Shown here: piece by piece, positions 12,985 to 38,673 of the stretch | Layout: each line of letters begins with the position of its first letter | Numbering within the stretch: position 1 is the stretch's first letter | NCBI GenBank assembly: GCA_964016885.1 | Contig: OZ024745.1 | Coordinates: forward strand, 60,760,001-60,824,000 | Direction: 5' to 3' | DNA: 64,000 nt | Origin: Eledone cirrhosa | Lineage: Eukaryota | Notes under the pieces: model-generated | What the model was told of the DNA's origin: nothing | Databases searched by the model: none | What the model saw: the letters and a program-made list of their open reading frames with translations, nothing else | Position numbers and translations under genes: made by a program

Positions 12985-13402
12985 TATTGTTATATATATA
13001 TTGTTATATTTGGGGAGGGTCATGTTGTTATAATATTGCCAGAAATATATAATAAAACACACTCACTGTGTCTATTAGACATTCCAATGCAACGGGAGGA
13101 AACATAATAGTACCACTGATGACGTCGCAGGTGTGTGATGAAAGAACTTTGATAGACTATATATATATATATATTTCTATATTTTTTTTAACGGTTGGTC
13201 AATCAATGATAAACATTGGTTGCTAGCTAAATTAACTTTAGGGATATAAAATATACGCGAAAACCAATCCAAACCAAACAGTGGGTGTATTTTATTATAT
13301 ATTTCTGGCAATATTATAACAATATGAACCTCCCAAATATAACAATATTTGTTTCAACACACGATTTCATATAAAAAATCTTGCAAAACAAATCCATCAC
13401 CG
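12985..13402 (+). mobile_element. Solo PLE pLTR with inverted short arm, relative of the 21921-30567 element
   Basis: Both ends encode the ORF start M(T/N)LPKYNNI; hammerhead-like CTGATGA-C-GTCGCA/TGTGAT-GAAA at 13111-13154; TA/TG flanks. Confidence 0.85.
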
Positions 13403-13457
13403 TGTGTGTGTGTATATATATATATATATATATATATATATATATATATATATATAT

Positions 13458-13650
13458 AACGAAGGAAATGTGGTAAGGAACCAGGTGGACCATAACGCAC
13501 CAAAGTACTCAATACTTAGGGTAGTAGAGTGGGTAATAGGAACAAGTAAGACCCCGACGGCTGAGCTCAAGCCGTTTCGACAGCTAATTCAGTCCAGAAT
13601 TAGCCGTCGAAACGGCTTGAGCTCAGCCGTCGGGGTCTTACTTGCTCCTA
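13458..13650. mobile_element. Fold-back insertion containing the 3' half of a hammerhead
   Basis: Palindrome 13537-13650; GAAA-CGGCT-loop-AGCCG-TC-GGGG; ~80-nt one-sided tail also present at 20312-20395. Confidence 0.65.
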
Positions 13651-13777
13651 TATATATATATATATATATATATCATATGTAACCCATGTGCAACCACGCA
13701 GTATTCTTTCTTCTCATGTTTTATATATATATATATATATATATATATATATATATACACACGCATACACATGTATA

Positions 13778-13876
13778 CAGAGTGTTCCCTCAAAATACAT
13801 ATACACTTCAACAGCATTCTAATAATATTGCCTGTACAGGTAATCAAAGTGTGTATACATTTTTTGGGACACCCTG
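13778..13876. mobile_element. Tc1/mariner-type mini-MITE
   Basis: TA|CAG(A/G)GTGT.CC..AAAAT..ATA.ACACTT inverted termini, TA TSD. Confidence 0.7.
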
Positions 13877-15309
13877 TATTCATTAATTGTTAGAATAACC
13901 ATCACAACAAAGACCTTGCTTGAGCCTCGTCTTCAGTGTTGGCTTTCTTCTTTTTCATCTCATATCAGTTAAACATCTTGAGAGCGTAATGTTTGTTGAT
14001 GGAAGCTAGTCTACCCAGCTCTAACACATCACAGATGGTTGATCCTGGACAATATCAAGTACTGCATCTGGCTATATAACTTTCTTTGTGTGAGTATGTG
14101 TGTTAGTGTATGTGTCTACGTGCGTGTATACACATACATATTTACACACGTGTGCACATGACATATAACCAAACTAACACGTGTAATTTCCTAAACACGA
14201 TTTACATCCTTTATTTCACATACGTAAACGCACATACATATTCACACTCGACGCACAAACACACACACACACACGCACATACGCTCTCACACATTCACAA
14301 ACTGACAGTGTCAGTTTAGCCGAAAACGAGATAAATTCGATTTATGGGACACTTGTGAACTTTTCATTAGAAACGCCTGTTAAAAGGGTGGGGTGGGAGT
14401 GGGGTGGCAATGGGGTGGGGGAAAGTGACTGGAGCCTGTGTCATGTGATGTCACAGACGCCTTAAATCCCGGACGGTGCAGGAGTCCGGGCACTAACCGC
14501 CTCGTTGTCCCTGCGGACAGAATGGAAAAAGGCTTTGCCTTGAAGGGTGATGAAGGAGACCCGTTGTAATAGTAATTTCAACTCCGGGGAGGGGGGGGGG
14601 GGGCTCATTCACTTCTATGGGGGACGTTGGTCCAGGGTCCAAGAACGTCAGAGGTCTCCATTGCTACAGGTTCGACGACAAGCAAACCTGTAGGAGAGCG
14701 GCCGATATTTAGACAGTTTATGCTCTAGTGAACTTTGTATTAGAAATGTCTTCTTAGAAGGATGAGAAAGGTAAATGGTTGGAGCTTGTTATGAATAACC
14801 AAAGTCTAATTATTCCTCAGGAGTTCGTATTCTCTAACAAGCCGTACTACACTGGTCTATCTCTCTCTCTGCCCTCTCACTCGCTCACTCTCTGTCTGTA
14901 TTTCTCACCAAGATTTCGACACATAAATTTGGAGTCCACAGAGTTAATCGCAACAGCTAAGATAGAAACTCTCCGTATTTTCCTTTTCGACTACCAGCTT
15001 ATAGTCTTCACATTTAAAGTGATAGACACCTTCTTTTTCATCCCCTTATTCCCAAGAAGATCATGTGTGTGTGGATGTGGTGATGGGGGGGGGGGGAGTT
15101 CTCAGACACATTTTCTAGAGGATCCTATCAGAAACAAACCTCTTCAATTAATCCGGGTGTGTCCCCAAACGAGACAAACTGTGCCTATGGATATTATCCA
15201 ACCATATTGCTCGGGGCCTCTTGGTTGGTTTTGCCCGTAAAATCTATCCTACGATTCGTACCTTTGACATTCTCAATACATGTCCATAGTACTGCAGGTG
15301 TGATCCTTC

Positions 15310-35293: not shown

Positions 35294-36788
35294 AATCTAA
35301 GTATGTAATATACGTACATACATATATGTATACAGACGTACAGTAGCATGCATATATATATATATATATATATATATATATATATATATATATACATATA
35401 CATATATACATACATATATATATATAAATCTAAGTATGTAATATACGTACATACATATATGTATACAGACGTACAGTAGCATGCATATATATATATATAT
35501 ATATATATATATATATATATATACATATACATATATACATACATATATATATATAAATCTAAGTATGTAATATACGTACATACATATATGTATACAGACG
35601 TACAGTAGCATGCATATATATATATATATATATATATATATATATATATATATATATATATATATATATATATATATATATATACATATACATATATACA
35701 TACAGGTACACATACATATATGCACGCATCAGTTTAGCGGACGTTCGTTTATTATAACGCCGCTTTGTTCGTTTGTTTGTCAACAAACCGAACAGCCTGA
35801 ATTTATGCCATACGGTGTTAAGGCAACCACGTCACCTTTTTGTTCAACACTGACACAGGAACGATGTACTAGTTTCAAGCTTGTTAGCTATCATCAGCAC
35901 CGTTTACCCATCTGCCAGATAGTTGAACGTTCGAAAGTATATACTTTCCTTATGAAAATTAACGGCTGAGCAGCCTAATTTGCATATTGAGTGAGTTAAA
36001 TCGGTCAGGCATACCGAAAACGATAAGTTGAAAAACAAACGAACAAAGTGGCGTTATAATAAACGTCCGCTAAACTGATGCGTGCATATATGTATGTGTA
36101 CCTGTATGTATATATGTATATGTATATATATATATATATATATATATATATATATATATATATATATATATATATATATATATGCATGCTACTGTACGTC
36201 TGTATACATATATGTATGTACGTATATTACATACTTACATTTAAGTAAGTGCCATACTAAGAGTGAGAAATGAAATTTCGTTTTCATTTCTTTTCAACTT
36301 ATCGTTTTCGGTATGCCTGACCGATTTAACTCACTCAATATGCAAATTAGGCTGCTCAGCCGTTAATTTTCATAAGGAAAGTATATACTTTCGAACGTTC
36401 AACTATCTGGCAGATGGGTAAACGGTGCTGATGATAGCTAACAAGCTTGAAACTAGTACATCGTTCCTGTGTCAGTGTTGAACAAAAAGGTGACGTGGTT
36501 GCCTTAACACCGTATGGCATAAATTCAGGCTGTTCGGTTTGTTGACAAACAAACGAACAAAGCGGCGTTATAATAAACGTCCGCTAAACTGATGCGTGCA
36601 TATATGTATGTGTACCTGTATGTATATATGTATGTATGTATATATGTATATATATATATATACATATATACATGCTACTGTACGTCTGTATACATATATG
36701 TATGTACGTATATTACATACTTACATTTAAGTAAGTGCCATACTAAGAGTGAGAAATGAAATTTCGTTTTCATTTTTTTTCAACTTAT
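35294..36788. mobile_element. ORF-less hammerhead-containing unit (~0.5 kb): inverted copy + 1.5 direct copies (retrozyme-like)
   Basis: Direct repeat period ~514 bp (36041 vs 36555); inverted arm 35294-36032; TA flanks. Confidence 0.75.
36422..36464 (+). ncRNA. Hammerhead motif (family E); mirror at 35861-35903 minus
   Basis: ACGGTG-CTGATGA-TAGC-TAACAA-GCTT-GAAA-CTAG-TA-CATCGT. Confidence 0.8.
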
Positions 36789-37182
36789 ATATATATATAT
36801 ATTTATATATATATATATATATATTTATATATATATATTTATATATATATATATATATATTTATATATATATATTTATATATATATATATTTATATATAT
36901 ATATTTATATATATATATATATTTATATATATATATATATTTATATATATATATATATTTATATATATATATATATTTATATATATATATATATTTATAT
37001 ATATATATATATTTATATATATATATATATATATATATATATATATTTATATATATATATATATATATATATATATTTATATATATATATATTTATATTT
37101 ATATATATATTTATATTTATATATATATATATATATATATATATATATATATATATATATATATATATATATATATATATAT

Positions 37183-37645
37183 ATATTGTTATACTTTGGG
37201 AGGGTCATGTTGCCAATAAGAAACACACGCACCAGTTGCTTTCACTTCAATTTAATTTATTATATATTTATAAATTTACAAATTTATAAATTTCTGGTTG
37301 GTTGGTTGGTTCCACAACCAGATAGTTGTTTATATATACATAGTCATAGTTCTTTCGTCACACACTCTGTGACCTCTTCAGAGTCACTGAAGAGGTCACA
37401 GAGTGTGTGACGAAAGAACTATGACTATATATATATAAACAACTATCTGGTTGTGGAACCAACCAACCAACCAGAAATTTATAAATTTGTAAATTTATAA
37501 ATATATAATAAATTAAATTGAAGTGAAAGCAACTGGTGCGTGTGTTTCTTATTGGCAACATGACCCTCCCAAAGTATAACAATATCGGTTTCAACACACG
37601 GTTTCAGATAAAGAATCTTGCTAAACAAATTCAGAAACGAAATAT
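37183..37645. mobile_element. Fold-back of a third PLE pLTR relative (family D)
   Basis: ~200-bp arms with 5-nt spacer; both ends encode [49 protein letters not shown] at 37382-37426. Confidence 0.88.
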
Positions 37646-37940
37646 ATTTATATATATATATATATATATATATATATATATATATTTATATATATATATA
37701 TATATACATATATATATTGATACATATATATATTTATATACATATATATATTTATATATATATTTATACATATATATATACATATATATATTTATACATA
37801 TATATATACATATATATATATATTGTTTTTCCATTGTGATATGGATGATGGACAATTGAAAGAGCTCAACTAAATGTATATGGGTTTACAAAATCATACA
37901 TATATATATGTTTATACATAAATATAAAATTAATACACAC

Positions 37941-38673
37941 ATACAGTACAAAAATACGAATATTTCCGTGAAAATAGGAGCAAAATTATGTAGATAAATC
38001 TACCAAGAGTTTACGGTAGTGTCCAATCCGTATGAAGAACTCAATGTATTCCGGATATCATGGAAAGAAGAGATGTAATGAAAATCCACTTTCGGTGAAA
38101 GATAAACGGTATACAGAGTCAAGATAAAATATTAAACAAATAATGAACAAACAATTCCTTATATTAAACAAAAAAAGTTCACTATTTAACGATCGTTTCT
38201 AGGGTATATATGTGTTATAATTGGTATGCATATTCAACAGATCTATGTACATAATTATACAAAATTATACAAATTATCAAGATTAAATATACATACCTAA
38301 CACATATATACGCCGTCTTCAGAAATAATCGATTATTTCTGAAGACGGCGTATATATGTGTTAGGTATGTATATTTAATCTTGATAATTTGTATAATTTT
38401 GTATAATTTTGTACATAGATCTGTTGAATATGCATACCAATTATAACACATATATACCCTAGAAACGATCGTTAAATAGTGAACTTTTTTTGTTTAATAT
38501 AAGGAATTGTTTGTTCATTATTTGTTTAATATTTTATCTTGACTCTGTATACCGTTTATCTTTCACCGAAAGTGGATTTTCATTACATCTCTTCTTTCCA
38601 TGATATCCGGAATACATTGAGTTCTTCATACGGATTGGACACTACCGTAAACTCTTGGTAGATTTATCTACAT
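37941..38673. mobile_element. Zero-spacer 686-bp palindrome (37988-38673) plus ~48-nt one-sided tail; PLE-like pLTR fold-back
   Basis: Centre ATCGAT at 38328-38333; one visible mismatch; hammerhead in each arm. Confidence 0.75.
38332..38480 (+). ncRNA. Hammerhead motif with very long stem II (family G); mirror 38181-38329
   Basis: ATTATTT-CTGAAGA..GTATATATGTGTTA/TAACACATATATAC..GAAA-CGATCG-TT-AAATAGT. Confidence 0.7.

What the first reader, a model, noticed from the sequence alone, without database searches (positions are those of the whole stretch)
12985..38673. Conserved asymmetric 'short arm / long arm' ends across independent fold-back insertions
Seen: three diverged relatives (12985-13402, 21921-30567, 37183-37645) each have one arm ending at ...AACAATAT|ATAT (~26 nt into the ORF) and the opposite arm running on to ~80-85 nt into the ORF. 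Unrelated fold-backs at 13458, 20062 and 37941 likewise have a 45-80 nt one-sided tail. Inference: two priming events on opposite strands of the (TA)n target, one at the RNA 3' end and one at an internal ATAT microhomology, i.e. a defined two-ended integration mechanism recorded in the sequence.
Basis: partly seen in the sequence, partly recalled or inferred. Interest (0 to 1): 0.75.

Follow-up and report, generated by a model that had tools for sequence, protein, structure and literature searches.

The report
Penelope retroelement one-sided tail, strictly paired
These back-to-back insertions belong to Penelope-like jumping genes, and their uneven ends are the already described one-sided "tail"; almost every two-armed copy has one short and one long end, likely because both cut DNA strands start copying the element's RNA at two fixed internal points.

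Summary
21921-30567 is a young C-terminal-endonuclease Penelope-like element (PLE): a partial tandem plus an inverted arm, inside (TA)n. The two smaller fold-backs are stubs of sister subfamilies. Among 148 young arm ends from 131 genomic stretches, 74 lie at ORF +26, 18 at +69-71 and 50 at +81-85. Of 49 two-armed loci, 48 pair a short with a long end. This is the published PLE "tail" (PMC3846280, PMC8557442), shown in vitro to lie between two internal reverse-transcription start sites (PMC11167929). Two primings on opposite strands are supported. The 37941 example is an exception to the rule. Additions here: near-obligate pairing, arms sharing source-lineage variants, and tails of 40-162 nt in other families, three with Hydra-like ORFs. 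This scan has noted the same architecture and reading many times on other DNA.

The parts
12985..12997 (-). Extra 13-nt copy of the short end (possible abortive start followed by re-priming; inferred)
   Evidence: a similar repeat in L059
12998..13069 (-). Family A, older subfamily: short arm, -45..+26 relative to the ORF ATG
13076..13402 (+). Family A, older subfamily: long arm, about -265..+79, ending in (TG)n; minimal hammerhead motif at 13116
13458..13651 (.). Family B (Hydra-like PLE) stub: long arm on - strand with 79-nt tail, short arm on + strand; centre at a TCAGT initiator-like motif (motif identity recalled)
20055..20305 (.). Family C stub (old; parent ORF not found): short arm 20055-20150 (-), long arm 20161-20305 (+), tail about 40 nt
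20305..20396 (-). Tail-only fragment of family B next to the family C long end
21921..22902 (-). Family A young element: inverted 5'-truncated long arm, -898..+84, 99.6% identical to 25521-26499; hammerhead motif at 22226
22905..26418 (+). 5'-truncated upstream tandem unit including the pLTR; 22905-26444 identical to 27028-30567 at 3540 of 3540 positions; hammerhead motif at 26196; inferred RNA 5' end near 26132 (-287)
26419..30048 (+). Intact 1209-aa ORF: N-terminal region, Asn-rich insert, RT (DKS motif, YVDD), CX4CX2C linker, C-terminal GIY-YIG-like endonuclease
26445..26502 (+). The tail sequence in its internal, read-through position (ORF +27..+84); long ends fall at +69-71 and +81-85
30049..30567 (+). 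Terminal pLTR with hammerhead motif at 30319 and the short end at ORF +26 (30542-30567), followed by (TA)n
31969..32441 (.). Family E (Hydra-like PLE) stub: long arm on - strand with tail of about 162 nt, short arm on + strand
37183..37643 (.). Family A third subfamily stub: short arm (-) ending at +26, long arm (+) ending at +84; centre just 5' of the hammerhead core (37381/37387)
37817..38674 (.). Family D (Hydra-like PLE) fold-back, an exception: right arm -494..-152 (usual long end), left arm -494..+15 (end seen only here); usual short end of the family is -289

Best explanation
These are insertions of endonuclease-bearing Penelope-like retroelements whose two head-to-head arms end at two fixed points of the element, and they likely form because both nicked target strands prime reverse transcription, one at an upstream (short) and one at a downstream (long) internal site of probably the same RNA. 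Shown: the element type, the discrete ends, the short+long pairing, the independent inner truncations, and arms sharing source-lineage variants. Inferred: (1) the protein nicks both strands of an AT-rich target, about 9-13 nt apart where a duplication is readable; (2) each 3'-OH starts a cDNA, one at ORF +26 and the other at +69-71 or +84-85, with position set by protein or RNA structure and 2-4 nt of primer pairing only tuning the register; (3) each cDNA stops at random or at the RNA 5' end (about -287); (4) the two cDNA 3' ends are joined by short microhomology or a few added bases, and each is then copied by the other.
For: Pairing: 48 of 49 young two-armed loci; 16 of 16 in family B, 9 of 11 in D, 6 of 6 in E. 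Arms are not copies of each other: short arm longer in 24, long arm longer in 23; tail-only arms of 37-64 nt in L044, L090, L095, L100, L101 and of 8-23 nt in L039, L066, L069, L115, L123. Same source: recurrent variants shared by both arms 17 times and discordant 3 times (85%), against 16% on average and 54% at most in 2000 permutations (34 loci). Ends chosen anew: no link between long site and haplotype at 10 markers, lowest p 0.085. Inner joints: at least 2 nt of microhomology in 14 of the 21 joints without inserted bases, against 15% by chance; the other 17 of 38 carry inserted bases. RNA 5' end: 12 of 64 inner ends between -600 and -30 lie at -280..-300 (p 3e-6). Target: array interruptions have the same polarity on both flanks in 10 of 10 informative loci, and duplications of at most 10, 10 and 13 nt flank three non-array insertions. 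Independent contigs show loose ends at 26444 (+26) and 26502 (+84). A related PLE nicks and extends both strands, starts at two internal sites and is predicted to be a dimer (PMC11167929).
Against: No RNA, protein or intermediate was observed; every mechanistic step is inferred from DNA. In vitro, no difference in start site between the two strands was seen (PMC11167929), so the asymmetry itself is not reproduced there. Long+long pairs exist (L050; L053 in another subfamily; one pair by coordinates), and the window's family D copy breaks the rule. Shared variants could also come from two RNAs of one donor or from later gene conversion between arms; 3 of 20 informative sites are discordant. 6 of 47 pairs have inner ends within 10 nt of each other, and 2 of these are not at -287, which fold-back would also explain. 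38 one-armed blocks (24 short, 14 long) showed no partner; several are parser failures at gaps or deletions, so the true one-armed share is not known.
Confidence: 0.7

Rival explanations
1. Twin priming by a dimer that holds two separate RNA molecules from the same donor locus, with the two protomers fixed in different registers.
For: Explains arms that overlap by kilobases without needing strand displacement. A predicted PLE dimer (PMC11167929). Three discordant lineage variants.
Against: Several source haplotypes are active, yet arms are 85% concordant, so both RNAs would have to come from one donor. It gives no simple reason why two equal RNAs are read from different sites.
Confidence: 0.14
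2. Fold-back (self-priming): one cDNA or an antisense template turns on itself and is copied back, and the tail arises when the endonuclease resolves the intermediate (as proposed in PMC3846280 and PMC8557442).
For: Near-symmetric centres in 6 of 47 family A pairs and in most family B and D stubs. Published proposals.
Against: Cannot give arms with no shared sequence, or a short arm kilobases longer than the long arm. Most symmetric centres sit at one recurrent point per family (-287 in A, -494 in D, TCAGT in B), as expected if both cDNAs run off the RNA 5' end.
Confidence: 0.08
3. One reading: the long end is the RNA 3' end and the short end is an opportunistic internal ATAT match.
For: All common ends have 2-4 nt that could pair with a (TA)n primer. 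A minor class at +19 follows a 5-nt match (180 copies).
Against: Better matches are rarely used (against 29, 77). There are two or three long sites, independent of donor lineage. Tandem arms read through +84. The long end stays at +79..+84 in three subfamilies with different sequence there. Internal initiation was shown in vitro for another PLE.
Confidence: 0.06
4. Assembly artefact or decay of palindromes after insertion.
For: Long inverted repeats in (TA)n are hard to assemble. L050 and L051 share one inner joint 9.5 kb apart.
Against: Thousands of junctions at the same base. Loose ends at the same bases in contigs of other runs, including another study. Each family has its own fixed pair of sites.
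Confidence: 0.02

Closest known systems
Complex insertions of canonical EN+ Penelope-like elements (Adineta vaga Pen2a, PMC3846280; general scheme in PMC8557442 Fig. 2 legend)
   Same: Partial tandem forming pLTRs, adjacent inverted 5'-truncated copy, pLTR reaching into the first codons of the ORF (12 aa, or 22 aa with the tail, in Pen2a; here about 9 and 23-28 codons), tail on one end only, 8-10-bp duplications, Asn-rich insert in the ORF.
   Different: Tail 43-59 nt in family A, 79 in B, 137 in D and about 162 in E, against the published 30-40 bp. Two alternative long sites in family A. Pairing is counted here and is nearly obligate, where the papers say 'optional' or 'often'.
Poseidon element PAc of Anolis carolinensis in vitro (Frangieh et al. 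2024, PMC11167929)
   Same: Both target strands cut and extended, AT-rich target, two internal RT start sites within the start of the ORF with the tail between them, little dependence on homology to the target.
   Different: PAc starts map 111-118 nt into the ORF; here at +26 and +69/+84. No strand difference was seen in vitro, and per-insertion pairing is not reported in the parts read. Different clade.
Neptune/Nematis-type PLEs (family A) and Hydra-clade PLEs (families B, D, E) as defined in PMC8557442
   Same: A: C-terminal EN with CX2-5CxxC linker and C/C/H/H residues, (TA)n targets. D: RWR, DKT, CxCX5C, CxxC and CxH motifs; B: CxCX5C; E: DKT.
   Different: A has DKS in place of DKG. No tree against reference elements was built, so clade names are by motif only. 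The family E unit is 4258 nt, longer than the 'generally <3 kb' given for Hydra.
L1 twin priming (Ostertag and Kazazian 2001; recalled, not read)
   Same: Second target strand primes on the RNA; head-to-head cDNAs are joined at microhomology.
   Different: In L1 the first primer uses the poly(A) tail and the two parts barely overlap. Here both starts are fixed internal sites 40-160 nt apart and the arms duplicate each other.

Membership tests
Canonical (C-terminal EN+) Penelope-like element | Single ORF with RT followed by a GIY-YIG endonuclease | tested here: met
   1209-aa ORF. RVT_1 match is weak (E 1.8e-4, below the curated cut-off). The EN part has no Pfam hit of its own but aligns with homologue P0097, which passes the GIY-YIG cut-off there.
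Canonical (C-terminal EN+) Penelope-like element | pLTRs formed by partial tandem duplication | tested here: met
   22905-26444 equals 27028-30567; longer tandems in L037, L038, L140.
Canonical (C-terminal EN+) Penelope-like element | Adjacent inverted 5'-truncated copy | tested here: met
   21921-22902; 49 two-armed young loci.
Canonical (C-terminal EN+) Penelope-like element | Tail at one end only (published length 30-40 bp) | tested here: met
   Present on one arm in 48 of 49 pairs; longer than published (43-59 nt).
Canonical (C-terminal EN+) Penelope-like element | Minimal hammerhead ribozyme in the pLTR | tested here: met
   Own descriptor with a bulged base before stem II (feature from PMC4209133): 6 hits in family A arms of the window, 0 in 30 shuffles; stem II differs by compensatory changes among subfamilies. 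Stem I is only 2 bp in the young subfamily. Rfam gave no hammerhead hit in these arms. Activity untested.
Canonical (C-terminal EN+) Penelope-like element | Short target-site duplication | tested here: inconclusive
   At most 10, 10 and 13 nt, microhomology included, in L031, L033, L075; not readable inside (TA)n arrays.
Canonical (C-terminal EN+) Penelope-like element | RT phylogeny within PLEs | not tested
   No named reference PLE proteins were fetched; no tree built.
Neptune/Nematis clades (family A) | CX2-5CxxC linker upstream of GIY-YIG, and CCHH residues | tested here: met
   Linker cysteines are conserved across the alignment; Cys and His candidates read by eye in the window protein (definition). 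Neptune and Nematis are not told apart.
Naiad/Chlamys | N-terminal endonuclease | tested here: not met
   EN is C-terminal in families A, B and D.
Hydra clade (families B, D, E) | RWK, DKT, CxCX5C linker, no CCHH | tested here: met
   D: RWR, DKT, CxCX5C, CxxC, CxH (L252, L261). B: CxCX5C in L256. E: DKT in L233 (definition). Only part of the motifs was seen for B and E.
Hydra clade (families B, D, E) | Canonical hammerhead in the pLTR | tested here: inconclusive
   The descriptor found only family A motifs in the 9 loci scanned; it may be too narrow.
Any PLE (family C, 20055-20305) | Linked RT-EN ORF | tested here: inconclusive
   20 loci of 3 kb gave one tblastn hit (L215), not shown to be linked.
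L1-type twin priming | First priming on poly(A); non-overlapping inverted parts | tested here: not met
   No poly(A); arms overlap by up to kilobases.

The most novel reading that the evidence does not exclude
Penelope-like elements integrate through an obligately asymmetric complex: one RNA is loaded into two RT active sites at two fixed internal positions, whose spacing is a family trait (40 to about 160 nt here), and both nicked target ends are extended at once. The two cDNAs then join and serve as each other's second-strand templates. The inverted pLTR and the tail would then be the normal product of every integration, not optional extras, and one-armed copies would be cases with a vanishingly short second arm.
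Probability: 0.5. Interest if true: 0.55.

Novelty: new member of a known kind. Interest (0 to 1): 0.3.

Why it matters
The later steps of PLE integration are still open: PMC11167929 leaves second-strand synthesis and repair unvalidated, and PMC8557442 calls for a mechanism for the tandem/inverted structures. The counts here turn the tail from an optional curiosity into a near-fixed rule per insertion. They give a direct test on the existing in vitro system: sequence both junctions of the same product, with two marked RNAs. Tails of 137-162 nt also matter for drawing the boundaries of Hydra-like consensus models. The architecture and the two-site explanation are already published, so the gain is incremental.

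Tried and rejected
DNA search of the own genome with the terminal pLTR found nothing (common words are skipped), so patterns were used. Pfam on the whole ORF gave no family. PDB sequence search gave only weak RT matches (E 0.057 and 0.17). Rfam gave simple-repeat noise and no hammerhead in the element. My first hammerhead descriptor missed the element's motif because it lacked the bulge (fixed). The ESM Atlas gave no answer. No RNA holder listed, so RNA ends could not be examined; this says nothing about expression. An energy fold of -60..+130 showed nothing convincing at the start sites and had no control. Telomerase-like synthesis of the flanking arrays by the RT was considered and rejected, because interruptions have the same polarity on both sides. 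Inheritance of the long end from the donor was rejected. I first took the 37941 family's common end for its short end; one search showed it is the long end. The hairpin beside Hydra-type ends suggested by earlier scan notes was not tested. No structure or complex prediction was run. PMC522041 is not held.
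Full report
What is there. The span holds several insertions in (TA)n arrays. The largest, 21921-30567, has a 1209-aa ORF at 26419-30048. A 5'-truncated tandem copy precedes it, identical over 3540 of 3540 bases, and before that a 980-nt inverted copy. The protein has a weak RVT_1 match. Among 279 homologues the best is labelled Octopus vulgaris (68%), so the host is likely an octopod. An aligned homologue passes the Pfam GIY-YIG cut-off in the region matching our C-terminus. 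A minimal hammerhead with a bulged base before a 6-bp stem II lies in each pLTR copy and in both sister stubs, with compensatory changes among subfamilies and none in 30 shuffles (features from PMC4209133). This is a canonical Penelope-like element, Neptune/Nematis-type by motifs. I call it family A.

Checking the observation. In the window the three relatives end at +26 on one arm and at +79, +84 and +84 on the other. The 24-nt motif has 4753 exact genomic matches. I fetched 71 stretches around the first 100 listed matches and 60 more from the first 60 of 84 regions defined, all on contig C1. Only alignments of at least 94% identity and 28 nt were kept, so older copies were dropped. The 148 arm ends lie at +26 (74), +30 (3, chance run-on from +26), +19 (1), +69-71 (18), +81-85 (50), +56 and +75 (1 each, alignment effects). 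Of 49 two-armed loci, 48 are short+long and one is long+long (26 of 27 in the first set, 22 of 22 in the second). By coordinates alone, 25 of 25 and 25 of 26 head-to-head pairs are mixed; these overlap the fetched loci and are not independent. Contigs of other runs show loose ends at 26444 (+26; X5, X6) and 26502 (+84; X1, X5), and at 26489 and 26482 in X4. X1 and X4 may be the assembly's own sample; X5 and X6 are other studies.

The 'unrelated' fold-backs. 13458 (family B, 4986 pattern matches) has a 79-nt tail, and 16 of 16 two-armed loci are short+long. One copy spans an RT and a CxCX5C endonuclease. 20062 (family C, 25 matches) has a tail of about 40 nt in 7 of 10 two-armed loci and a shorter one in 3; its parent was not found. 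The 37941 family (D, 5130 matches) is Hydra-like by motifs. Its ends are -289 and -152 in 9 of 11 two-armed loci, a 137-nt tail. The window's copy is one of the two exceptions: it has the usual long end plus an end at ORF +15 seen only here. 31969-32441 (family E, 93 matches) has a tail of about 162 nt, 6 of 6 paired. So the rule spans at least two PLE clades, with a family-specific spacing.

How it most likely works. One arm cannot be a fold-back copy of the other. The short arm is the longer one in 24 pairs and the long arm in 23. Several long arms are only 8-64 nt of tail. Two primings are therefore needed, one from each target strand. Three insertions outside arrays have duplications of at most 10-13 nt, and array interruptions keep the same polarity on both flanks in 10 of 10 informative loci, so the arrays are target. 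Both arms usually carry the same lineage variants (17 shared, 3 discordant; 16% expected). That fits one RNA, but also one donor or later conversion. Inner ends pile up at -280..-300 (12 of 64). I read this as the RNA 5' end; it explains 4 of the 6 near-symmetric centres. Inner joints show microhomology (14 of 21 at 2 nt or more, 15% expected) or inserted bases (17 of 38; 38 of the 49 loci could be parsed).

The long end does not act as an RNA 3' end. Tandem arms read through it, it has two or three positions, and the position used is unrelated to donor haplotype at 10 markers (small counts). Microhomology does not choose the sites. Exact junction patterns into (TA)n number 2104 at +26 and 1591 at +84, but 180 at +19 and 25 at +51, where the match is longer (patterns differ in length, so the ratios are rough). 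Primer pairing of 2-4 nt probably tunes the register.

Results against my reading. Three long+long pairs were seen (L050; L053; one by coordinates). Two family D loci are irregular. 38 blocks showed one arm only, some through parser failure. Two symmetric centres lie away from -287. In vitro no strand bias of start sites was seen. No RNA data were available.

Comparison with what is known. PMC3846280 (passages) describes a 31-bp tail optionally present on one inverted pLTR, which extends the pLTR from 12 to 22 codons of the ORF, with 8-10-bp duplications; it proposes self-priming. [quoted passage not shown] PMC11167929 (parts 1-3 of 4) shows cleavage and extension of both strands and two internal start sites that bound the tail. 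A term search of its three supplementary files held as text found nothing; its figures were not seen and may bear on pairing. PMC4209133 was read as passages. L1 twin priming and the initiator motif are recalled. Searches returned no paper that counts short+long pairing per insertion or reports tails above 40 bp; subscription journals and the older reviews were not searchable. Earlier notes of this scan report the same architecture and twin-priming reading in this and other genomes; I had reached that reading before consulting them.

Verdict. Real, and a new member of a known kind. The tail and its two-site origin are published. The near-obligate pairing, the same-source arms and the long tails are useful details that make the remaining steps testable. 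Interest 0.3.

Noticed in passing
window 53998-54594 (+): 198-aa ORF with a strong RTP801_C match (E 3.6e-32): a host REDD1/scylla-like gene or exon (family name recalled).
   Followed up: partly
window 33014-34034 and 40981-41296; 34261-34296 (-): Tandem arrays of 93-105-nt units, the first followed by a hammerhead-like motif (Rfam Hammerhead_1 E 0.28, below cut-off; descriptor hit); a similar downstream sequence recurs near 41119-41517. Possibly another retroelement.
   Followed up: no
window 35294-36729: Complex fold-back with short tandem units and arms 35688-36034 / 36291-36633; family not identified.
   Followed up: no
window 3063-8310: Several fragments of a non-LTR retrotransposon; 3063-3800 passes the RVT_1 cut-off.
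   Followed up: partly
window 12985-12997; L059:1399: The short end is repeated once before the array, like an abortive start followed by re-priming.
   Followed up: partly
L049, L050, L051 (G000:C1:36.03-36.15 Mb): L050 and L051 share one inner joint 9.5 kb apart; L050's unusual long+long end has the same flank as L049's long end, which hints at a local duplication or recombination.
   Followed up: partly
L088:1889-8064: Four-part insertion (- + - +) with mirrored inner breakpoints at -2097 and -970.
   Followed up: no
window 21445-21922, 30564-31107, 34451-35702: (TA)n arrays of 0.5-1.3 kb host several different PLE families side by side; new insertions land next to old ends (for example L073, L178).
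   Followed up: partly
window 27161-27630: Asn-rich in-frame insert near the N-terminus of the ORF, like the inserts described in Adineta vaga Penelopes (PMC3846280), but in a different position.
   Followed up: no
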